Below, piece after piece: positions 15,184 to 36,733 of a stretch of DNA of 56,770 bases. Numbering within the stretch: the first letter of the stretch is position 1; the number at the start of each line of letters is the position of its first letter. A model generated the notes under the pieces. That model saw only the letters and a list, made by a program, of their open reading frames with translations, did not search any database and was not told where the DNA came from. Made by a program: the position numbers and the translations under genes. Origin of the DNA: a virus (Duplodnaviria; Caudoviricetes); the IMG/VR virus record IMGVR_UViG_3300037423_000513, positions 1-56,770 of that record, one strand, 5' to 3'.

Positions 15184-16281
15184 TCACGCAGCAATTACCT
15201 GCCAATCGCCCCTGAGATCATGATATTTGTCGGTCATTGCGGCGGTTTTGTGACCGAGCATCGACTGAGCAAAGGCAGCACCGAATTGCTCCCGGTACAG
15301 GCGCTCGGACAGGCTCCGGATCTCATGGAAACTCGGCGGGGTGCGCCCCTCGGCCGCCTTGATGCCGGCAGCTTCACGGGCATTCTGGAAAGCATTCGAC
15401 AGGCCGTTACTTGTCACCCGATCACCGGGCTTGGCTGATCCCTGATGTTCGACGTGGTGGACGAGATACTGCGTAGTGATCAGGTCCCTACATGCCTGCA
15501 CTGCCTCACCGATAGATACGCCGACCTTGGCCAACCGAATATCTCCGCTCAGCCGGAGTTTGACGGTCCCGTTGCTCTTTCCTTGGGTGACGTGCAAATA
15601 CCCTTCGCGCCAGTCCGAGAACTTCATGCTCGCGATGTCGTCACGGCGTTGGGCCGTGGTCAGTGCCAAGTACATAGCGCGCTGGAGCCACCGTGGCGCT
15701 TTTGCATGGATTGCGTGGAACTGCTCGAGTGACAGACGCTCGCGCTTTACCTGAGGCCGCGGCGCCCTGGTTGCGGAGACTGGATTGCGACCAACGTCGA
15801 TCAGACCTTGCGTTTCGGCCCAGCGGAACACGTCACTCATGCGCGCTCGCACAGCATTGGCTGTCGCTTCTCCGCTTTCTTCCTCAACTTCCTCCAGAAA
15901 CTTCGCCACGTGCGCTGTGGTGATATCCTTCAGCCGGCGCTTGCCGATATCCGCCTCTGTCATCTTTTTGATGTACATCGTGCAGGCGCGAATCGTGTTG
16001 TCGCGAGGCTTCTTTTTCTCCAGCCACAGTTCCTTGTAGACTGGTAGCCAACCCTCAAGCGTGTATTCCGTCTTGCCCATCACCCAATCGACCAGCGATG
16101 ACGGCTCACGCGTTGCCAGTGCCGCATTAGCCTTGCGCGCCTGCTGCACGGCGTGCGCTTTATCCCGCCCAAGCCCTTTTTGCGTCTTCTCGATCGGGTT
16201 ACGGTAGTAGAAGTACCCTGCCGGGTTCTGGTACAGGTTCGGCGGCAGGGCACGGTTCTTGGCTAAACGTCTACGGCCCAT
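15184..16281 (-). CDS. int: Tyrosine integrase, lambda-type with arm-binding domain
   Basis: TAQRRDDI (R), FHEIRSL (H-x-x-R), LGHK, DKY motifs; N-terminal LPPNLY arm domain. Confidence 0.95.
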   Translation of the reverse strand: MGRRRLAKNRALPPNLYQNPAGYFYYRNPIEKTQKGLGRDKAHAVQQARKANAALATREPSSLVDWVMGKTEYTLEGWLPVYKELWLEKKKPRDNTIRACTMYIKKMTEADIGKRRLKDITTAHVAKFLEEVEEESGEATANAVRARMSDVFRWAETQGLIDVGRNPVSATRAPRPQVKRERLSLEQFHAIHAKAPRWLQRAMYLALTTAQRRDDIASMKFSDWREGYLHVTQGKSNGTVKLRLSGDIRLAKVGVSIGEAVQACRDLITTQYLVHHVEHQGSAKPGDRVTSNGLSNAFQNAREAAGIKAAEGRTPPSFHEIRSLSERLYREQFGAAFAQSMLGHKTAAMTDKYHDLRGDWQVIAA

Positions 16282-16999: not shown

Positions 17000-17704
17000 T
17001 TACGTCTCCTTGGTGGCGAGATTTACGCTGCTTGCCTCAAGCAGTCGCCATGCTGTTGCAGCCACGATTGGAACCTGGCCGTTGCCAGTGGCTGCGAGTC
17101 GGTCCATCCGATGGGCCAGCCCATTAACCATTCGTGATTCGTCGGGGTAGGTTTCCCAAATGCGCGGACGAACTCGCGCGCGCACTTCCATTTCTGCATT
17201 GACTTGGCCGCATAGTTCGCCGTACAGGTCGGTGTATGCACGAAGCCAATATCGTTCCCGTTCATGGTCTGCACCCACGTTTGACGCGGAAAGACCGATG
17301 CAACTGACCTCGTAACCCATCGCTTCGAGGTCTTCCGCCGCTCGGTCGATGGCGCGCCGCTGGACGTTTTCGGCGAATACGTACCGGGGAGCGACATCTG
17401 CCACGATCCGTCGCATCTCCGGCCAGAGATCGTCTGCAACGTTTTTCCCCGCAGCTGCGCTGGAATAGGCTTGACAGGGAAACCCGCCTGAAACCACATC
17501 AACAATTCCGCGCCATGGGTATCCGTCGAAGGTACGAACATCATCCCAAACTGGGAACGGTGCAAGATGCCCTTCATTTTGTCGCTGCATGAGTCGTCGA
17601 GCGCAGAAGGCGCTGTATTCCACGGAGACGACTGTGCGCCATCCGAGCAGCTTGCCGCCGAGTATGCCGCCTCCAGCGCCTGCGAAAAGTGCCAGCTCAT
17701 TCAC
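17000..17704 (-). CDS. C5 cytosine methyltransferase, alpha frame (motifs I-VIII and X)
   Basis: FAGAGG, GGFPCQ, ENV, HERER and GNGQVP motifs; GTG start after AAGGAGG. Confidence 0.85.
   Translation of the reverse strand: MNELALFAGAGGGILGGKLLGWRTVVSVEYSAFCARRLMQRQNEGHLAPFPVWDDVRTFDGYPWRGIVDVVSGGFPCQAYSSAAAGKNVADDLWPEMRRIVADVAPRYVFAENVQRRAIDRAAEDLEAMGYEVSCIGLSASNVGADHERERYWLRAYTDLYGELCGQVNAEMEVRARVRPRIWETYPDESRMVNGLAHRMDRLAATGNGQVPIVAATAWRLLEASSVNLATKET
17023..17700 (-). CDS. Overlapping beta-frame polypeptide of the methyltransferase (TRD-like segment plus motif IX)
   Basis: Open 225-codon alternative frame ending EWLMGWPIGWT; conserved with 34651..35478. Confidence 0.7.
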   Translation of the reverse strand: MSWHFSQALEAAYSAASCSDGAQSSPWNTAPSALDDSCSDKMKGILHRSQFGMMFVPSTDTHGAELLMWFQAGFPVKPIPAQLRGKTLQTISGRRCDGSWQMSLPGTYSPKTSSGAPSTERRKTSKRWVTRSVASVFPRQTWVQTMNGNDIGFVHTPTCTANYAAKSMQKWKCAREFVRAFGKPTPTNHEWLMGWPIGWTDSQPLATARFQSWLQQHGDCLRQAA

Positions 17705-18396
17705 GCTTCCTCCTTTCCATTCAGAGGTGTAGGGGCGGCAGCGCGCCATTCCTCTGCCGTACGGCGAACGCCTTCTGCGGTGCCAGGGTTCTTGAGCGCA
17801 CAAGCCAGCACTTCAAGCGTGGTCGCCATGCGGTTGCCGATCTCAACTAGTTCATCTGGCGCTGTTCCAGCGGTGCGACCGTCGATGTAGGCGATGAGGG
17901 CGTTCATCGGTTTCTCGATGCTCTCGTTGTAAGATCCGGCGCGGTACACATCGCCAGCCAGATCCTCAAACGTTGAATCGTCACCGATGCTCTGCACCGC
18001 TCCCCGCGCCCGTTCTGCATCCTTGCGCGCGTTCTCGCTGCCGATAAAGGCGGCACGGGCCTGTTCCAGCTCGCGCTCCAGGTGGCGGATACGCTCGGCA
18101 AATGGGGCGATGGCGTCTTGCTGGGCCTGCCGTAGTTCGATATCGGTATACCCATAGACATCGGGATCGCAAAGAAACACTTCATCCGGCAACGGCGGCA
18201 GGGGGATGGCTTCGCCATTCGTCCCCATAGGGGCGGAGACAGGAGGGGTGCGGGCATTCCATCCAGCAGTGCAATCGTCGGCGTTTGGCCCTTCGTAGTT
18301 CACGCCACATTCGCAAGCCGCCATGAAATACTCTTCCATATCGTGCATCTTGGCAGCGCCGCCACACATCGGGCAAGGTTTCAGTTCATCGCTCAT
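17701..18396 (-). CDS. Lar-like (restriction alleviation) Zn-finger mosaic protein
   Basis: MSDELKPCPMCGG...CECG...WNAR signature. Confidence 0.7.
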   Translation of the reverse strand: MSDELKPCPMCGGAAKMHDMEEYFMAACECGVNYEGPNADDCTAGWNARTPPVSAPMGTNGEAIPLPPLPDEVFLCDPDVYGYTDIELRQAQQDAIAPFAERIRHLERELEQARAAFIGSENARKDAERARGAVQSIGDDSTFEDLAGDVYRAGSYNESIEKPMNALIAYIDGRTAGTAPDELVEIGNRMATTLEVLACALKNPGTAEGVRRTAEEWRAAAPTPLNGKEEA

Positions 18397-18514
18397 GCTT
18401 CCGATCCTTTCTGTGGTTGACTGGCGGCACGACTGATAATCCAATCGACCGCCAAGATGACAACGGCCACACCGACGATGATGCCCGCGATACAGCAGTC
18501 GCGTTCTGTTTCGT

Positions 18515-19162
18515 TCACGTCCGTTTCTCCTTCGCACTGGCGGCGATAGCGGCGTCGAGCACTTGGCGATACTCACCCCATTGGCCCCAAGGCTCGCCGT
18601 CGTCCACCATTTGCCATTGTTCAATCTGTTTCTTCGTGTGGATGCGCCACCGCACCGACCAACGATGATTCGCAATAAGCCAGTTGATACGATCGGTATC
18701 CGCGCCAGCAGGCGCTGCCTGTGCAGCTTCCTGGCTGGGTGCTGGGGCGCGGCGGCGCAGTTCCTCAATGCTGGGAAATTCACGATCAAGGTATTCGTCC
18801 AAGCTCTCGCTCGCGCTTGCCGTGGTGGCCGCAGGGGTGGCGAGAGATTCGAATACTTTGCGCAGGCTCGGTACGCTGGTTGCGGACACCTGCACCGCGT
18901 CGAAACCGTACTTGCTCGGGTAGGTGTCGATACCATTGGCATGCAGCGCGGCGATGATCTGCTCGTCGGTCGGTGCTTCGGGCGCGGCTTGCCGGGTGAG
19001 TGCGGCGCGAGCTTGCCATGCGTCCCATCGGTCTTGGGTCACTTCGTCGAAGTAGTACCAGCCCGTTACGTCATGCTGCGCGCCATGTTTTTGCGCTTGG
19101 GTCAGTTCGGCCCATTCTTCAAATTTCGCCTGCTCGGTGACGCGCTGGTTCTGGTTATCCAT
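18515..19162 (-). CDS. Hypothetical early protein (mosaic)
   Basis: AKFEEWA...WDAWQARA and DTDRINWL motifs typical of lambdoid accessory proteins. Confidence 0.6.
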   Translation of the reverse strand: MDNQNQRVTEQAKFEEWAELTQAQKHGAQHDVTGWYYFDEVTQDRWDAWQARAALTRQAAPEAPTDEQIIAALHANGIDTYPSKYGFDAVQVSATSVPSLRKVFESLATPAATTASASESLDEYLDREFPSIEELRRRAPAPSQEAAQAAPAGADTDRINWLIANHRWSVRWRIHTKKQIEQWQMVDDGEPWGQWGEYRQVLDAAIAASAKEKRT

Positions 19163-30877: not shown

Positions 30878-31599
30878 ATCATCAAGCCGCAATGATCGGC
30901 AACGCCACGCTATACCACGGCGACTGTCTCCAGATTCTTTCAAGCTTGGACAAAGTTGACGCGGTGATCGCCGATCCACCCTACGGCATCAACTTAGGCA
31001 AGATCAGCGGTGCCGGCCGTAACCGCTGGAATGAGGGCACGAACTACGGCTTCAACATCATCGGCGATGACCATGATTTCGATCCGACGCCGTGGCTCGG
31101 CTTTGGCAAGGTCGTGCTCTTCGGCGGCAATCATTTCGGCAGCCGTCTGCCTGATGCCTCCTGCTGGCTGATCTGGGATAAGCGTGATGGCGGCACGTCC
31201 GACAGCTGCGCCGACTGCGAATTAGCTTGGACAAACTTGAAGGGCCCGGCCCGCCTGTTCTCGCAGAAGTGGCGCGGCATGGTGCGCAGCGGCGAAGAGA
31301 ACGTTTCGCGCGGCGCGGTACGCCTGCACCCAGCACAAAAGCCTGTCGCGATGCTGGCCTGGGTCATTGAGCAGTGCAAGCTTCCGGCAGGGGCCGTCAT
31401 TCTCGACCCCTACATGGGCAGCGCCTCGCTCGGCATCGCTGCGCTGCGCGGCGGGTACCGCTATATCGGCATCGACATCGAGCGCCGCTGGTTTGACGTC
31501 GCATGCGCTCGCCTCGAGCAAGAAGTCTCACAAGGGCAGCTCTTCACTCCAGAGCAGATCAAGCAAGAGCAGTTAGGGATATTTGGAGAACTTGCATGA
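30874..31599 (+). CDS. N6-adenine/N4-cytosine DNA methyltransferase, beta class
   Basis: DPPY, HPAQKP and DPYMGS motifs. Confidence 0.9.
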   Translation: MNHQAAMIGNATLYHGDCLQILSSLDKVDAVIADPPYGINLGKISGAGRNRWNEGTNYGFNIIGDDHDFDPTPWLGFGKVVLFGGNHFGSRLPDASCWLIWDKRDGGTSDSCADCELAWTNLKGPARLFSQKWRGMVRSGEENVSRGAVRLHPAQKPVAMLAWVIEQCKLPAGAVILDPYMGSASLGIAALRGGYRYIGIDIERRWFDVACARLEQEVSQGQLFTPEQIKQEQLGIFGELA

Positions 31600-32948
31600 G
31601 CGACATCAAACCGCCACCGCACAGCATCGAGGCCGAGCAGAGCGTCATCGGCGCCCTGTTACGCGACAACGACGCCATCGACCGCATGGGTGACCTGCGC
31701 TCCGAGCACTTCTACCTGGGCGACCACCAGGTCATCTTCGCCGAACTGATCAAGCAACTGAACGCCGGCCGCTCCTGCGACGTCATCTCGCTGATGGTCG
31801 CACTCGACGGCAAGATCAGCGAGCCCGGCAAGTACCTGAACCAGATGGCGCAGAACACGCCGTCATCGGCCAGCATCGGGCGCTACGCCGCGATCGTGCG
31901 CGACAAGGCTGTCAAGCGTGGCCTGATCGGCTTCGGGCGCGACACCGCAGATTTGGCGCTCAATTCGCCCGAAGACTCCGGCGCACTGGTCGACCGCGCA
32001 TCGTCGCGCCTGGAGCAGCTGGCCGTATCTCGCATCACCGTAGAACCCGTCCGCGCTGGCGACGAAATGGCCGCGCACATCGACCTGCTGCAAAAACGCG
32101 AGGCGGGCGGCGTCAAGGCGATCCCGACCGGCTACGAGGATGTCGACACGAAGTTGAGCGGGGGACTGCACCGCGGCTGCCTGTACGTGGTCGCTGGCCG
32201 CCCGAAGATGGGTAAGACCGCATTCGTCCTCAACATTGCCAACAACGTGGCTGAGGAATACTCAGTCGCAATCCTGTCGATGGAAATGCCGAAGAGCCAA
32301 ATCCACGACCGGAACCTTGCGAGCCTCGGCAAAATCCCCTTGCAGCACGTGGTCGAGCCGAAGTACATGACCGACGCGGACTGGGCCGGACTGACCGCCG
32401 CAACCCTCAAGATCGATCGCCTGCACCTGTACCTCGACGACCAGGGTGGTTTGCGTCTGCTGGACGTGCGCATGAAGGCCAAGGGCGTCAAGCGCCGGCA
32501 CGGTCTGGACCTCCTGATCATCGACTACCTGCAACTCATGGAAGGCGACGGCGACAACCGCAACGCGCAGATCGAAGGCATCACGCGCGGCCTGAAGTCG
32601 CTCTCCAAGGAACTCGACATTGCGGTGGTCCTGCTGTCGCAGCTGAATCGCAAGCTCGAGGAGCGCCCGAACAAGCGCCCGCAGCCATCCGACCTGCGCG
32701 ACTCCGGTGCCATCGAGCAGGACGCCGACGCAGTGATCTTCCTGTATCGCGATGAGGTCTACAACCCCGATTCGATCGACAAGGGCATCTGCGAGGTCGA
32801 CATAGCTCTTTGCCGCCAGGGCGCGCCGGGCAGGGTGGCTTTGACCTACCTGGGCGAGTACACGCGATTCGAGAACTGCGCCAGGTGGGTCCAGAGAGCG
32901 CCTGAAGACAGGCGCAAGCCGGGTAACGGGCTGTCGAAATATCTGTGA
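31596..32948 (+). CDS. dnaB: DnaB-like replicative helicase
   Basis: PPHSIEAEQSVIG, GRPKMGKT, DYLQL, SQLNR, DLRDSGAIEQDAD. Confidence 0.95.
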   Translation: MSDIKPPPHSIEAEQSVIGALLRDNDAIDRMGDLRSEHFYLGDHQVIFAELIKQLNAGRSCDVISLMVALDGKISEPGKYLNQMAQNTPSSASIGRYAAIVRDKAVKRGLIGFGRDTADLALNSPEDSGALVDRASSRLEQLAVSRITVEPVRAGDEMAAHIDLLQKREAGGVKAIPTGYEDVDTKLSGGLHRGCLYVVAGRPKMGKTAFVLNIANNVAEEYSVAILSMEMPKSQIHDRNLASLGKIPLQHVVEPKYMTDADWAGLTAATLKIDRLHLYLDDQGGLRLLDVRMKAKGVKRRHGLDLLIIDYLQLMEGDGDNRNAQIEGITRGLKSLSKELDIAVVLLSQLNRKLEERPNKRPQPSDLRDSGAIEQDADAVIFLYRDEVYNPDSIDKGICEVDIALCRQGAPGRVALTYLGEYTRFENCARWVQRAPEDRRKPGNGLSKYL

Positions 32949-34003: not shown

Positions 34004-34426
34004 ATGGGTGCATCCAAACGTAATGAAGTCCTTGCGGCCCTGCGAACAGCCGAGCAGGAATCGACCTGCCCACACCAGAAGGGTGATGGAACTGCCATGC
34101 GCATCCACCGCGAAACCGGAATGGGCGAGCAGAACGTGCGCAACCATCTCCAGAAGCTGGCAGTAGCCGGAGAAGCGCACATCTTCTGCTGGACCGAGGG
34201 TCATTCGACCGCACCAGTATGGGTGTCCGGCCCTGGTGAGAATGCCCCGAAGCCTGCACCGATGACCGCAGAGGAACTCAATGCGCGCAAAAGGGAGTCG
34301 CGTAGAAGGTGTGATCGGGAAGAAGTAAGGGAGCCGGGTTGGGCAAAACGTGCGACGTACGAGTGCATAGAGCGTGTACGCCAAGTCCCGCAATCGTGGT
34401 GCTCGCCATTAATGGGTGCCGTATGA
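34004..34426 (+). CDS. HTH-containing hypothetical protein
   Basis: TAMRIHRETGMGEQNVRNHLQKL; GAGGAG RBS. Confidence 0.6.
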   Translation: MGASKRNEVLAALRTAEQESTCPHQKGDGTAMRIHRETGMGEQNVRNHLQKLAVAGEAHIFCWTEGHSTAPVWVSGPGENAPKPAPMTAEELNARKRESRRRCDREEVREPGWAKRATYECIERVRQVPQSWCSPLMGAV

Positions 34427-34650
34427 GTCTCTACGGATGCCACAACAAGCCGCGGCCAACTAGCAAAACGACACATCTGGCGCAAAGCGGCTACGTCGAC
34501 AGTTGGAAGCCGGAGTATGTCGCAACCGCACGCACGCCGGTATGGATCGTGGTGCCGCATGTGATGAGCACCGATTGCAAGTACACCCAGCAGCACGCCA
34601 GCGATCCGCAGTGCTCGGGGTGCGTGCACAAGAGCAAGGAGGAAGCGTGA
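34423..34650 (+). CDS. Small Cys-rich protein
   Basis: MSLYGCHN...CKY...DPQCSGC; coupled both sides. Confidence 0.6.
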   Translation: MSLYGCHNKPRPTSKTTHLAQSGYVDSWKPEYVATARTPVWIVVPHVMSTDCKYTQQHASDPQCSGCVHKSKEEA

Positions 34651-35486
34651 ATGAGTTGGCTCTTTTCGCAGGCGCTGGTGGAGGAATACTCGGCGGGCAC
34701 CTCCTTGGCTGGGAGACCAAGTGCGCAGTTGAACGTGACGCCTACGCAGCACAAGTTCTGGCGCAACGACAAAACGATGGAATCCTCGCGCCTTTCCCAA
34801 TTTGGTCTGACGTTACAACTTTTGACGGAAGACCTTGGAGAGGAATTATTGATGTCGTATCTGGCGGCTTCCCATGCCAGGACATCAGCGCAGCCGGCAA
34901 AGGCGCTGGAATTGATGGCGCCAGAAGCGGCATGTGGCATCACATGGCCCGCATCATTCGCGAAGTACGACCCAAACGCGGGGTCCTCGTGGAGAACTCA
35001 CCAGTTCTCACTTCTCGGGGGCTTGGACGAGTTCTCGGCGACTTGGCCGAGATGGGGTTCCATGCGGAATGGGGAGTCATATCTGCGCTCGACACCGATG
35101 CTCAGCATGAGCGAGAGCGCATCTGGATTGTGGCCTACCCCGACAGTATGCGGGAATTACAACCGACCAGGTGCAAGCCCGACAAGCGGGCTTGGTCTCG
35201 CATCGGCGGTGAGATACAACCCGTCAGGAAAACCGATCTGGCGCACACCGAATGCTTCGGATGCAAGCAAGTGGAACAAGGAAAGAATCGAGGACAGGGT
35301 TGCCAAAGGGCGTCAGATCCGTCTGAACAACCAGATCTCTCCCGATGGTTCCCAAGCTGGCCAGATGAACCCGGAGTGGGTCGAGTGGCTGATGGGGTGG
35401 CCCATCGGGTGGACCGAATTAAAGCCCTTGGCAATGGCCAGGTTCCGCGAGTGGCAGCAGCAGCATGGAGGATTTTGACGTCATGA
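34647..35486 (+). CDS. C5 cytosine methyltransferase, alpha frame (motifs I-VIII and X)
   Basis: FAGAGG, GGFPCQDIS, ENS, HERERIW and ALGNGQVP motifs; GTG start after AAGGAGG. Confidence 0.9.
   Translation: MNELALFAGAGGGILGGHLLGWETKCAVERDAYAAQVLAQRQNDGILAPFPIWSDVTTFDGRPWRGIIDVVSGGFPCQDISAAGKGAGIDGARSGMWHHMARIIREVRPKRGVLVENSPVLTSRGLGRVLGDLAEMGFHAEWGVISALDTDAQHERERIWIVAYPDSMRELQPTRCKPDKRAWSRIGGEIQPVRKTDLAHTECFGCKQVEQGKNRGQGCQRASDPSEQPDLSRWFPSWPDEPGVGRVADGVAHRVDRIKALGNGQVPRVAAAAWRILTS
34651..35478 (+). CDS. Overlapping beta-frame polypeptide (TRD-like segment plus motif IX)
   Basis: 275-codon open alternative frame; LWPTP, WRTP and MNPEWVEWLMGWPIGWT. Confidence 0.75.
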   Translation: MSWLFSQALVEEYSAGTSLAGRPSAQLNVTPTQHKFWRNDKTMESSRLSQFGLTLQLLTEDLGEELLMSYLAASHARTSAQPAKALELMAPEAACGITWPASFAKYDPNAGSSWRTHQFSLLGGLDEFSATWPRWGSMRNGESYLRSTPMLSMSESASGLWPTPTVCGNYNRPGASPTSGLGLASAVRYNPSGKPIWRTPNASDASKWNKERIEDRVAKGRQIRLNNQISPDGSQAGQMNPEWVEWLMGWPIGWTELKPLAMARFREWQQQHGGF

Positions 35487-35725
35487 GATGCCAGAACCCC
35501 GATCAAATCTGCGGCATGTGCGTCGACTTCACCCGAAAGGACGCAGAGCCGCAGTACACCGCCCTAGGCATGGGCCGGTGCCACGGCTACGACCAGGATG
35601 CCACGTCACCAGTGCGCTACGTCGCTTGGAACGAGAGCTGCATCCTGTTCGACAAGGACAAGGCCAACGTTCATACGCGTCGCCGGTTCGTCGAGAAGTG
35701 TCGCGCTGAAGGAGTAAGCGAATGA
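35483..35725 (+). CDS. Small Cys-rich hypothetical protein
   Basis: CGMC...GRC...C; ATGA-coupled. Confidence 0.55.
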   Translation: MRCQNPDQICGMCVDFTRKDAEPQYTALGMGRCHGYDQDATSPVRYVAWNESCILFDKDKANVHTRRRFVEKCRAEGVSE

Positions 35726-36177
35726 TCCTCGCAATCGACCCCGGCACTACGGAAAGCGGCTGGTGCATCTATGACGGCAAGCGCGTCGTCGACTCCGGCA
35801 TAACGGCGAATGCCGAGATGTTGTACGCGATCCCTTACGTCCCGGCCGACCGCCTCGCGATCGAGATGATTGCCTCCTATGGCATGGCTGTGGGTCGCGA
35901 GGTATTCGAGACCGTTTGGTGGATTGGGCGCTTCACCCAGGCCTATCACAAGCCCGAGGAAGTAATTCGCATCTACAGGCAGGAGGTCAAACTCTTCGTT
36001 TGTAAGGATACGCGCGCAAAGGATTCGAATATTCGCCAAGGCTTGATCGATATGCTCGGACCGCCAGGAACAAAGAAAAATCCAGGGCCGACATATGGGA
36101 TTAAGTCTCATGCGTGGGCGGCTTTAGGAGTTGCGGTGACTGCAGCATCAAAACTTGGAGTCAGCAGCCATGGATAG
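35722..36177 (+). CDS. RuvC-like Holliday junction resolvase
   Basis: ILAIDPG and AIEM acidic motifs, HAWAALGVA. Confidence 0.7.
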   Translation: MILAIDPGTTESGWCIYDGKRVVDSGITANAEMLYAIPYVPADRLAIEMIASYGMAVGREVFETVWWIGRFTQAYHKPEEVIRIYRQEVKLFVCKDTRAKDSNIRQGLIDMLGPPGTKKNPGPTYGIKSHAWAALGVAVTAASKLGVSSHG

Positions 36178-36733
36178 CAAGACATGCACATCGTGCAGAA
36201 ATGAATTACCTCTTGATAGCTTCCATATCAATCGGAAGGGGAAGGGCGGCAGACAGGCAAGGTGCAAGGCTTGCACCAGCGCCTTGTACTACCAGCCCAA
36301 CAAGCAGTATGTGATCGAGTCGACGCGCTTGCGACGCTTAACCGACGAGGGAAAGGCGCGAGAGAAGGAATGGCGAAATGGGAGGCGCCGCAACAATCCT
36401 CTCGTTCGCATCGTCCAAGAGGCCAAGGTGCGTGCGACCAAGCGCGGGCTGCTGTTTTCGATTACAGCCGAGGATCTGTCGATTCCAGAGGTTTGCCCCG
36501 TCCTGAATATACCTATCGGGATGACGTATGGAGCGCGCTCAGATAACTCGCTCTCAATCGATCGAATTGACAGCAAGAAGGGGTACGTGAAGGGCAATGT
36601 TCGAATCATCAGCTGGAGGGCAAATAGACTCAAGAATGACGCCACACTCGACGAATTGCGCGCCATCGTCTCCTACATGGAGAACGCCCTTGGCGCTACT
36701 ACTGAAGTAGAACAACAGAGGGGGAGATCATGA
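36170..36733 (+). CDS. HNH endonuclease-like protein
   Basis: CTSC/CKAC Zn finger; SIDRIDSKKGYVKGNVRIISWRANRLK. Confidence 0.8.
   Translation: MDSKTCTSCRNELPLDSFHINRKGKGGRQARCKACTSALYYQPNKQYVIESTRLRRLTDEGKAREKEWRNGRRRNNPLVRIVQEAKVRATKRGLLFSITAEDLSIPEVCPVLNIPIGMTYGARSDNSLSIDRIDSKKGYVKGNVRIISWRANRLKNDATLDELRAIVSYMENALGATTEVEQQRGRS

What the first reader, a model, noticed from the sequence alone, without database searches (positions are those of the whole stretch)
34647..35486. Dual-frame C5 methyltransferase, copy 2: selection switches frame along the gene
Seen by comparing the two copies: near the 5' end all five differences are synonymous in alpha. Across EWLMGWPIGWT the differences (GAG/GAA, CTG/TTA, GGG/GGC, GGG/GGA) are synonymous in beta but change alpha (VADGVAHRV vs MVNGLAHRM). 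In motif X, AAT/AAC is synonymous in alpha again. This is direct evidence that both overlapping frames are functional. Beta also has two tandem W[PR]TP TRD-like units. Inference: a heterodimeric enzyme from a fully nested gene pair (or a double frameshift), with possible cross-pairing of subunits between the two copies to give extra specificities.
Basis: partly seen in the sequence, partly recalled or inferred. Interest (0 to 1): 0.85.

Follow-up and report, generated by a model that had tools for sequence, protein, structure and literature searches.

The report
Two-frame phage cytosine methyltransferase gene
One stretch of phage DNA is read in two frames to make what are most likely the two halves of a single DNA cytosine methyltransferase, an arrangement proven once before in E. 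coli but far more widespread in phages than gene annotation shows.

Summary
Window 34647-35486 holds a C5 cytosine methyltransferase ORF (alpha, 279 aa). A +1-frame ORF (beta, 275 aa) starts 4 nt later and ends 8 nt earlier. Copy 1 (17000-17704, minus strand) has the same layout.

- **Both frames stay open.** Beta is open over at least 90% of alpha in 84 of 87 relatives (GC 0.45-0.63). Shuffling alpha's synonymous codons predicts about 5 stops per gene.
- **Selection switches frame along the gene.** The N-terminal 160 codons are alpha-dominated. The middle is beta-only, with alpha evolving neutrally yet never interrupted. The C-terminus is constrained in both frames.
- **A single-chain relative gives the order.** P0157 carries alpha 4-174, beta 100-273 and alpha 234-279 in one frame. 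This is the canonical order: motifs I-VIII, variable region with motif IX, then motif X.
- **A predicted complex passes.** It scores 0.88 against 0.02 for the best control.

The best reading is a two-polypeptide enzyme. Alpha is the catalytic domain plus motif X. Beta is the recognition domain plus motif IX. A double frameshift is disfavoured.

The kind is known. M.EcoHK31I has a nested beta, and "total overlap" was noted in Streptococcus phages. Beta relatives number at least 6915, and every source name among the 120 listed reads "hypothetical protein". No experiment was done here.

The parts
34637..34643 (+). Shine-Dalgarno-like AGGAGGA shared by both starts. Its GGAGG core ends 4 nt before the alpha GTG and 8 nt before the beta ATG.
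   Evidence: Read from the sequence. G-rich boxes lie at the same place in most of the 26 representatives (by eye).
34647..35486 (+). Alpha, copy 2: 279-aa C5 MTase large-domain subunit. It holds motifs I-VIII, an unconstrained linker and motif X.
   Evidence: PF00145 9.2e-28 over residues 5-176. phrog_363 2.7e-62 over the full length. The family profile matches M.HhaI residues 16-176, 1.5e-20.
34651..35478 (+). Beta, copy 2: 275-aa +1-frame subunit. It holds an N-terminal leader, a conserved module, WPTP-type variable region, a motif IX-like helix and a tail.
   Evidence: ORF. phrog_1008 7.8e-24. At least 6915 relatives. In-frame homologue inside the single-chain MTase P0157.
34665..34685 (+). 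Alpha motif I (FAGAGGG)
   Evidence: the motif name is recalled.
34866..34880 (+). Alpha motif IV (GFPCQ, catalytic Cys)
   Evidence: Aligned to GFPCQ of M.HhaI; coordinates.
34992..35000 (+). Alpha motif VI (ENS). The same bases give beta SWRT.
35112..35126 (+). Alpha motif VIII (RERIW)
35127..35345 (+). Alpha linker (about residues 161-233). It evolves neutrally but is kept free of stops.
   Evidence: omega_alpha 0.96 [0.85-1.09], close to the beta-only simulation. 0 stops against 2.8 expected per gene in 26 of 26 representatives.
35430..35447 (+). Alpha motif X (GNGQVP)
   Evidence: N263 and Q265 are invariant in A1; G264 is invariant and N263 and Q265 nearly invariant in A3. Predicted to contact beta 244-250.
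34948..35100 (+). Beta conserved module, residues 100-150 (KYD..SWRT..TWPRWG.MRNG). It overlaps alpha motifs V-VII.
   Evidence: hhalign 99.4% to P0157 residues 184-232.
35131..35250 (+). Beta variable (recognition-like) region, bounded by WPTP (35131-35142) and WRTP (35239-35250).
   Evidence: omega_beta 0.41 [0.31-0.54]. The number of such units is 0-5 in 84 beta proteins.
35383..35454 (+). Beta motif IX-like EWLMGWPIGWT (35383-35415) and tail PLAMARFREW (35425-35454). They overlap alpha RVADGVAHRV...GNGQVP.
   Evidence: Conservation z of 25-33 above the alpha-shadow null. Codon-identity excess of about 0.5 at all depths of divergence. Predicted interface.
17000..17704 (-). Alpha, copy 1 (234 aa, ENV subtype)
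   Evidence: (PF00145 1.7e-21).
17023..17700 (-). Beta, copy 1 (225 aa). It has HTPT, EWLMGWPIGWT and PLATARFQSW.
34339..34650 (+). Upstream ORF in the beta frame. Its TGA stop (34648-34650) lies inside GTGAATG, so it overlaps the alpha start and abuts the beta start.
   Evidence: Copy 1 has the same layout (ORF 17701-18942). The family as a whole does not: 31 of 84.

Best explanation
The locus most likely encodes a two-polypeptide C5 DNA cytosine methyltransferase. Both chains are read from the same DNA in two frames.

Ribosomes start at one ribosome-binding site, either at GTG 34647 (alpha) or at ATG 34651 (beta).

**Alpha** is the catalytic, AdoMet-binding large domain. It has motifs I-VIII, then a spacer of about 70 residues whose sequence does not matter, then the helix carrying motif X.

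**Beta** has a loosely constrained leader of about 95 residues. After that come a conserved module, a variable WPTP-type recognition region, the motif IX-like helix EWLMGWPIGWT and a short tail.

The two chains then assemble so that beta's motif IX region packs on alpha's motifs X and I. This rebuilds the usual order I-VIII / variable region + IX / X.

The gene is an orphan phage methyltransferase. The phage carries two diverged copies, one in each early operon, presumably to protect phage DNA from restriction.

**Shown:** both ORFs, their conservation, frame-specific selection, and the in-frame fusion in a relative. **Inferred:** translation of both frames, binding, the division of labour and the biological role.
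For: 1. **Both frames stay open.** 84 of 87 relatives chosen by alpha similarity keep beta open. Expectation is 4.9 stops. 65 of 70 loci chosen by beta patterns keep alpha open, and 67 of 70 have PCQ.
2. **The beta start is conserved.** ATG at +4 occurs in 86 of 87. AATGAGYTGG occurs in 82 of 84, with a G-rich box upstream.
3. **Selection is frame-specific** (30 disjoint pairs).
   - Middle region: omega_alpha 0.96, omega_beta 0.41. This matches the beta-only simulation (0.81, 0.34).
   - C-terminus: 0.34 and 0.37, which fits neither single-frame simulation.
   - N-terminal region: omega_alpha 0.16.
   - Codon-identity excess in the C-terminal region stays near 0.5 even below 45% alpha identity.
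4. **Alpha is never interrupted in the middle**, despite neutrality: 0 stops against 73 expected in 26 representatives.
5. **Alpha lacks the variable region and motif IX by sequence.** Pfam and M.HhaI alignments stop at about residue 177.
6. **A single-chain relative fuses the parts in canonical order.** P0157 (its DNA is L178) has alpha 4-174 (hhalign 100%), beta 100-149 (99.4%), beta 112-273 (tblastn 1e-19) and alpha 234-279 (3e-8) in one frame. Its own +1 frame is full of stops.
7. **Complex prediction passes.** Score 0.88 (three runs: 0.89, 0.88, 0.88); best of 3 controls 0.02. That mark was reached by 58 of 80 solved complexes and 2 of 110 mismatched pairs. Runs agree in at least 72% of contacts and partner pLDDT is at least 63. 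Contacts join alpha 251-268 and 10-19 to beta 237-262.
8. **There is a precedent.** M.EcoHK31I needs an alpha chain and a beta chain, and beta is encoded in another frame inside alpha (PMC2836561 passages; PMC3404938 passages).
Against: - No direct evidence of translation of either frame, of binding, or of methylation.
- The complex score may reflect the model's memory of solved single-chain C5 MTases. My own alignments were used, so the calibration counts hold only roughly.
- Beta alone folds poorly: AF2 pLDDT 54, pTM 0.25; Atlas model pTM 0.26.
- Beta has no Pfam, NCBIfam or PDB sequence match. Calling its helix "motif IX" rests on recalled resemblance, on the position in P0157 and on predicted contacts.
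- In the N-terminal 160 codons the omega_beta estimate (0.59) equals what alpha-only selection gives in simulation (0.60). The excess codon identity there decays from 0.35 to 0.11 with divergence. Sequence constraint on beta residues 1 to about 95 is therefore weak.
- The alpha structure could not be predicted.
- Exceptions exist: L012, L030 and L075, L179 with a stop in alpha's middle region, and 5 of 70 loci with a truncated alpha.
Confidence: 0.8

Rival explanations
1. One hybrid chain is made by two programmed ribosomal frameshifts. The ribosome reads alpha through motifs I-VIII, shifts +1 into beta for the variable region and motif IX, then shifts -1 back to alpha for motif X.
For: The selection profile (alpha in the N-terminal part, beta in the middle, alpha motif X at the end) would fit on its face. 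The canonical order in P0157 is alpha, then beta, then alpha.
Against: - Beta is kept open from a conserved ATG through 160 codons that a hybrid would not use. Joint log10 P is -7.9, -13.5 and -23 for the three sub-regions.
- Alpha is kept open through the middle.
- Beta's tail after motif IX stays constrained where it overlaps motif X.
- A canonical slippery heptamer occurs in 1 of 26 representatives.
- The beta 100-149 module present in P0157 overlaps alpha motifs V-VII. One pass of a ribosome cannot deliver both.
Confidence: 0.04
2. Beta is a non-functional shadow ORF. It is open and looks conserved only because alpha's amino acids and codon usage happen to allow it.
For: omega_beta in the N-terminal region is no lower than under alpha-only simulation. 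Beta alone has no confident fold.
Against: - Synonymous permutation predicts about 5 stops per gene against about 0 observed.
- P0157, a relative with about 50% alpha identity, has many stops in its +1 frame.
- The middle region shows beta-only selection.
- EWLMGWPIGWT is identical in the two copies while alpha differs there.
- The beta sequence occurs in frame inside single-chain MTases.
Confidence: 0.02
3. Alpha is a complete methyltransferase on its own. Beta is an overprinted protein with a separate job, such as regulation or counter-defence.
For: phrog_363 covers alpha end to end. Beta has no recognised domain.
Against: - Alpha has only a neutral spacer where the recognition domain and motif IX should be.
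- In copy 1 only about 50 residues separate motif VIII from motif X.
- P0157 places the beta parts between alpha's two parts in one chain.
- The predicted interface is the one expected for motifs IX and X.
- phrog_363 is built from the same dual-coded genes, so its full-length match is not independent evidence.
Confidence: 0.1

Closest known systems
M.EcoHK31I (E. coli; alpha + beta; recognises YGGCCR)
   Same: It is a C5 MTase that needs two polypeptides. Beta is encoded entirely inside the alpha gene in another reading frame. [quoted passage not shown] Source: passages of PMC2836561 and PMC3404938.
   Different: - There beta is the smaller chain, and the TRD is assigned to alpha. I recall the chain lengths as 176 and 309 aa; no call showed them.
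- Here beta is as long as alpha and starts 4 nt after it. The constrained variable region lies on beta, and alpha's middle is neutral.
- M.EcoHK31I belongs to a restriction-modification system, whereas these are orphan phage genes.
- Sequence homology to M.EcoHK31I could not be tested.
C5 MTases of S. thermophilus 5093-group phages, a pneumococcal phage and Tn5252
   Same: [quoted passage not shown]
   Different: This is only an annotation remark in that paper. The text I read gives no selection analysis and no assignment of domains. I did not test relatedness to the window's family. The first tblastn tally of window beta listed no Streptococcus phages among its ten named groups.
Paenibacillus phage Leyra gp61/gp62 (NC_048692) and similar records annotated with two overlapping MTase genes
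   Same: A nested +1-frame CDS lies inside a C5 MTase CDS, and both are annotated. Leyra beta has the same WPTP-type units and an EWVECLMGFPIGWT helix. Leyra-type beta matches 105 phage records, including phage N15 gene 58.
   Different: Leyra beta starts 184 nt into alpha, with stops upstream in that frame. It ends before alpha's motif X, so the overlap is partial.
M.AquI (two-subunit C5 MTase)
   Same: It consists of two polypeptides split within the variable region (PMC3404938 passage).
   Different: In M.AquI the small subunit carries motifs IX and X. Here motif X stays on alpha. I recall that the M.AquI genes are essentially consecutive rather than co-extensive.
Single-chain relative P0157 / L178 (586 aa; IMG/VR and metagenome record)
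   Same: It has the same alpha and beta sequence modules: hhalign 100% and 99.4%, tblastn 1e-19 and 3e-8.
   Different: All modules are in one frame and laid out one after another. Its +1 frame is closed by many stops. It has about seven WPTP-type units.

Membership tests
C5 cytosine DNA methyltransferase (Pfam PF00145) | N-terminal catalytic core: motifs I (FxGxG), IV (PCQ with the catalytic Cys), VI (ENV) and VIII (RxR) | tested here: met
   Alpha copy 2 scores 98 bits against a cut-off of 22, over residues 5-176. Copy 1 scores 71.6 bits. The alignment to M.HhaI 16-176 shows GFPCQ, EN and RxR.
C5 cytosine DNA methyltransferase (Pfam PF00145) | Variable (target-recognition) region and motif IX in the same chain, between motifs VIII and X | tested here: not met
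   The Pfam and M.HhaI matches to alpha end at about residue 177. Alpha residues 161-240 evolve neutrally. The homologous in-frame region of P0157 corresponds to beta, not alpha.
C5 cytosine DNA methyltransferase (Pfam PF00145) | Motif X (GN..V.P) at the C-terminus | tested here: met
   GNGQVP lies in alpha of both copies. N263 and Q265 are invariant in A1; G264 is invariant and N263 and Q265 nearly invariant in A3. The motif label is recalled.
M.EcoHK31I-type two-polypeptide C5 MTase | Beta ORF lies wholly inside the alpha gene in another frame | tested here: met
M.EcoHK31I-type two-polypeptide C5 MTase | Motif IX is carried by beta | tested here: inconclusive
   No profile names it. Support comes from its position just before the alpha motif X segment in P0157 and from predicted contacts of beta 241-255 with alpha motifs X and I.
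M.EcoHK31I-type two-polypeptide C5 MTase | TRD on alpha, as reported for M.EcoHK31I | tested here: not met
   Selection in the variable region is on beta only.
M.EcoHK31I-type two-polypeptide C5 MTase | Both polypeptides are required for activity | not testable with these tools
   This needs expression and methylation assays.
M.EcoHK31I-type two-polypeptide C5 MTase | Sequence homology to M.EcoHK31I alpha and beta | not tested
   No sequence of M.EcoHK31I was available from any tool, and PMC306636 is not held.
Programmed ribosomal frameshift gene | Conserved slippery site at the frame junction | tested here: not met
   A canonical X_XXY_YYZ heptamer lies within 90 nt after MG[WF]P in 1 of 26 representatives. 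+1 shift sites were not scanned.

The most novel reading that the evidence does not exclude
In this clade the fully overlapping state may be ancestral. The recognition subunit beta would then have arisen, at least in part, by overprinting on the catalytic-domain gene itself. Beta's SW(K/R)T lies on alpha's ENx, and beta's EWLMGWPxGW lies on alpha's RVxDGVxxRV. Single-chain enzymes such as P0157 would be later "unfolded" derivatives made by segmental duplication. That would make this one of the longest overlaps (230-300 codons) and one of the most widespread same-strand overlapping gene pairs in prokaryotic viruses. It would also be a case where one DNA segment encodes two interacting domains of one enzyme.
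Probability: 0.2. Interest if true: 0.8.

Novelty: new member of a known kind. Interest (0 to 1): 0.55.

Why it matters
- **Annotation.** Annotation pipelines call only one of the two frames. In the 12 phage records first fetched, beta alone was annotated in 3: L005, L007 and L009. PGAP names only alpha in E. coli prophages. At least 6915 beta proteins sit in public collections; none of the 120 listed has a Pfam family, and every source name among them but one UniRef "Transposase" reads "hypothetical protein". Recognising them as the recognition subunit of a split methyltransferase explains a large family of phage dark matter.
- **Specificity prediction.** It changes how the specificity of these enzymes should be predicted: from beta, not alpha.
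- **A test system.** It offers a natural, deeply sampled system for studying how two proteins share 800 bases. Single-chain and partly overlapping relatives are available for comparison.

Tried and rejected
**Analyses that did not deliver**
- +2 frame as a control for conservation. It also exceeded the permutation null (z 41). Any constraint on alpha's third positions raises it, so it is not an independent control. Only its stop count (about 16 per gene) is used.
- OLGenie-like omega_beta in the N-terminal region. It first looked like purifying selection (0.58). Simulation showed that alpha-only selection gives the same value (0.60), so it was dropped as evidence.
- Residual out-of-frame similarity and DNA similarity between the "unfolded" segments of L178. 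Out-of-frame tblastn hits had E 0.05-2.6 and are explained by the genetic code's shadow. Local DNA alignment was no better than codon-shuffled controls, p = 0.19 and 0.34. The direction of evolution is left open.
- The upstream stop inside GTGAATG as a general coupling device. It applies to only 31 of 84 loci.

**Searches that found nothing useful**
- Beta fold alone: pLDDT 54, too poor for a fold search, so none was run.
- PDB profile search with beta: nothing below E 0.25.
- Pfam PF00145 six-frame search of the window at E up to 10: only the two alpha N-terminal halves.
- ESM Atlas: no usable named cluster.

**Literature searches** found no paper in the held library that analyses this phage family. 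They did find the M.EcoHK31I papers and the S. thermophilus remark. Supplementary Figure S2 of PMC2836561 (beta start sites) could bear on start-site use and was not seen.

**Tools and jobs not available**
Full report
**What is at the coordinates.**
Window 34647-35486 (+) is an ORF that starts with GTG and encodes a 279-aa protein, alpha. Pfam matches the C5 DNA methylase family PF00145 (9.2e-28) over residues 5-176 only. The phage family phrog_363 covers alpha end to end (2.7e-62).

A second ORF, beta, lies in the +1 frame at 34651-35478 (275 aa). It starts with ATG four bases after the alpha start and ends eight bases before the alpha stop. Beta has no Pfam or NCBIfam match. It does match phrog_1008, "DNA methyltransferase" (7.8e-24).

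A diverged second copy lies on the minus strand. Alpha runs 17704-17000 and beta 17700-17023, with 43% and 28% identity to copy 2.

The window is a complete IMG/VR virus record. Copy 1 sits next to an integrase (15184-16281) in the leftward early genes. Copy 2 sits between a DnaB-like helicase (31503-32948) and a RuvC-like resolvase and an HNH endonuclease (35722-36733).

- The first five differences between the copies are synonymous in alpha.
- The five differing bases across EWLMGWPIGWT are synonymous in beta and change alpha.
- AAT/AAC in motif X is synonymous in alpha.

**Is it more than chance? Relatives chosen for alpha similarity.**
I collected relatives without regard to beta:
- 12 GenBank phage records. 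These came from the best rows of the tblastn search with beta; the same records also topped the search with alpha. They were fetched.
- 80 IMG/VR loci found with an alpha alignment, out of 577 confirmed relatives.

Of the 80 IMG/VR loci, 5 lacked the N-terminal pattern used to anchor the gene (L028, L048, L058, L076, L092). One ran off its contig (L047) and one was mis-anchored (L052). This left 87 genes, counting the two window copies.

Results for the 87 genes:
- Beta is open over at least 90% of alpha in 84, and ATG stands at +4 in 86.
- The exceptions are L012, L030 (the frame relation changes after about 20 codons) and L075 (88%).
- GC ranges from 0.45 to 0.63.
- The +2 frame has about 16 stops per gene.
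- Permuting alpha's synonymous codons within each gene gives 4.9 beta-frame stops on average against 0.25 observed.
- Alpha never places Met before I/M/T/N/K (0 of 381), a pair that would force a TGA in beta.

Stop avoidance holds in every sub-region of beta, including residues 2-42. Joint log10 P over 26 representatives with less than 65% alpha identity is -7.9. For residues 43-100, 101-160 and 161-240 it is -13.5, -23.0 and -13.9.

**Is it more than chance? Relatives chosen for beta patterns.**
The converse also holds. Of 80 loci picked from species genomes by beta patterns, 70 could be analysed. In these 70:
- alpha is open in 65
- alpha has PCQ in 67
- alpha has a GN-type motif X in 64

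**Which frame is selected where.**
I used 30 phylogenetically disjoint pairs with 73-95% nucleotide identity and an OLGenie-like estimator. I calibrated it by simulating alpha-only and beta-only selection.

| Region (alpha residues) | Observed omega_alpha / omega_beta | Alpha-only simulation | Beta-only simulation |
|---|---|---|---|
| 1-160 | 0.16 / 0.59 | 0.04 / 0.60 | 0.22 / 0.06 |
| 161-240 | 0.96 / 0.41 | 0.34 / 0.72 | 0.81 / 0.34 |
| 241-279 | 0.34 / 0.37 | 0.06 / 0.41 | 0.49 / 0.06 |

- **Residues 1-160.** The beta value is not evidence for selection, because alpha-only simulation gives the same value.
- **Residues 161-240.** The profile fits beta-only selection.
- **Residues 241-279.** Neither single-frame model fits, so both frames are constrained.

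At columns where alpha residues agree, codon identity exceeds the permutation null. In the C-terminal region the excess is about 0.5 at every depth of divergence. In the N-terminal region it falls from 0.35 to 0.11.

Alpha's middle region evolves neutrally, yet it has no stop in 26 of 26 representatives. Permuting beta's synonymous codons predicts 2.8 stops per gene.

Conservation of beta over the alpha-shadow null peaks at EWLMGWPIGWT, z 25-33. The same test on the +2 frame is also high, so it is not an independent control.

**What beta is.**
Beta-like proteins are abundant. At least 6915 were found among 8000 scored candidates. None of the 120 listed carries a Pfam family. Every source name among them reads "hypothetical protein", apart from one UniRef label, "Transposase".

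A search for longer proteins with beta residues 100-268 found 43. Five of them have PF00145 on record: P0133, P0157, P0160, P0162 and P0164. Two were read in detail.

P0157 (586 aa) and P0160 (669 aa) have an alpha-like N-terminal catalytic core: PF00145 over residues 13-193 and 9-172. By eye, P0160 shows the same order of modules as P0157.

In P0157 the modules lie in this order, all in one frame:

| Module (window numbering) | P0157 residues | Support |
|---|---|---|
| Alpha 4-174 | 16-186 | hhalign 100% |
| Beta 100-149 | 184-232 | hhalign 99.4% |
| Beta 112-273 | 348-520 | tblastn 1e-19 |
| Alpha 234-279 | 527-573 | tblastn 3e-8 |

The +1 frame of its DNA (L178) is broken by many stops.

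This single-chain relative shows three things:
- Beta's second half is the variable region plus the motif IX-like helix of an ordinary methyltransferase of this clade.
- It belongs between alpha's two conserved parts.
- The beta 100-149 module and alpha motifs V-VII are both needed, although in the window they are read from the same bases.

One ribosome pass with two frameshifts cannot deliver both. A canonical slippery heptamer is present in only 1 of 26 representatives.

**Do the two chains fit together?**
The complex prediction gave 0.88 (three runs: 0.89, 0.88, 0.88) against 0.02 for the best of 3 controls. That mark was reached by 58 of 80 solved complexes and 2 of 110 mismatched pairs. 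The runs agree in at least 72% of contacts, and partner pLDDT is at least 63.

The most certain contacts join alpha 257-267 (motif X), alpha 15 and alpha 37 to beta 241-255. Others join alpha 141-143 to beta 135-136.

Because solved single-chain C5 methyltransferases exist, this pass may come from likeness to them. My own alignments were used, so the calibration counts hold only roughly.

Beta alone folds poorly (pLDDT 54). That fits a subunit that needs its partner but proves nothing. The alpha model could not be made.

**Starts.**
The box AGGAGGA (34637-34643) ends 4 nt before the GTG and 8 nt before the ATG, by its GGAGG core. The spacing suits the beta start at least as well as the alpha start. 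The judgement on spacing is mine, from general knowledge.

The codon before AAT GAG is ATG, GTG, TTG or CTG in 66 of 84 genes. It is the non-start codon TTA or CTT in 18, where alpha must begin further upstream.

In both window copies the stop of the upstream ORF is the TGA inside GTGAATG. In the family this holds for only 31 of 84.

**Variation.**
- Beta carries 0-5 units of the WPTP type, and its length follows their number (r = 0.69).
- Other families place the beta start elsewhere. It lies 184 nt into alpha in Paenibacillus phage Leyra, where both CDSs are annotated, and after motif IV in L181.
- L179 has a stop in alpha's middle region while beta is intact.

**What is known.**
- M.EcoHK31I needs an alpha chain and a beta chain. 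Beta is encoded within alpha in another frame and carries motif IX. Alpha is said to carry motifs I-VIII, X and the TRD (passages of PMC2836561; passages of PMC3404938).
- The original 1995 paper is not held.
- A 2017 survey remarks that C5 methyltransferases of S. thermophilus 5093-group phages show "apparent total overlap" in different frames. It says the same for a pneumococcal phage and Tn5252 (PMC5601072, section 19 read in full).
- My six searches of the held library found no evolutionary or structural treatment of the phage family. This is not proof that none exists.

**Verdict.**
The finding is real. It is best explained as a two-subunit cytosine methyltransferase read from two frames of one gene. 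It is a new member of a known, though obscure, kind.

It has three features not reported for the prototype:
- complete co-extension of the two ORFs from one ribosome-binding site
- the recognition region on beta
- a neutral but uninterrupted spacer in alpha

The direction of evolution between overlapping and single-chain forms is unresolved.

Noticed in passing
window 34339-34650 (+) and 17701-18942 (-): In both copies the upstream ORF is in the beta frame. It ends at the TGA inside GTGAATG, so its stop overlaps the alpha start and abuts the beta start. This could couple translation. In the family only 31 of 84 loci have an upstream open frame of at least 40 codons there.
   Followed up: partly
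L179:301-1533: This relative has an intact full-length beta, but its alpha frame has an in-frame stop in the middle region. It could be a three-piece enzyme, a decaying gene or a sequencing error.
   Followed up: no
L030:542-1489: The frame that starts with the alpha N-terminus becomes the beta frame after about 20 codons. This looks like a one-base indel and would fuse alpha motif I to beta. The true beta start frame has 11 stops.
   Followed up: no
proteins P0162 and P0164 (958 and 1074 aa): These relatives have PF00145 and a Hint domain on record for both. In P0162, the only one of the two I scanned, a LAGLIDADG domain was also found inside the PF00145 core. This suggests an intein in the methyltransferase.
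   Followed up: no
protein P0133 (496 aa): This chain has alpha motif I, then an insertion with an HNH-like Cys/His pattern. It passes from GGFP straight into beta-like sequence without the PCQ cysteine. It is either a frameshifted gene call or a degenerate fusion.
   Followed up: no
L178-L181 and P0157: A module reading QDMEQARFAGN..KRPKY recurs in the variable region of beta proteins (L179, L180, L181) and of the single-chain P0157. This hints at shuffling of recognition modules between the two architectures.
   Followed up: no
phage records (e.g. NC_001901 gene 58; PV764600): The Leyra-type nested beta matches the cytosine methyltransferase genes of 105 phage records. These include Escherichia phage N15 gene 58 and phages of Salmonella, Burkholderia, Xanthomonas and Lactobacillus. 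Several are annotated with two overlapping MTase CDSs.
   Followed up: partly
window 34651-35478: The protein collection holds the window's beta sequence itself, on 2 contigs. The gene caller used for this record therefore chose the beta frame. Among the first 12 GenBank phage records, beta alone is annotated in 3 (L005, L007, L009). Closely related Vibrio phages differ in which frame is annotated.
   Followed up: yes
window 17000-17704 versus 34647-35486: The two copies belong to two subtypes. Copy 2 has PCQDIS...ENSP. Copy 1 has PCQAYS...AENV with a short variable region containing HTPT..ANY..SMQKW. The second subtype is shared with L004, L007, L008, L011 and Pseudomonas phage Marin.
   Followed up: partly
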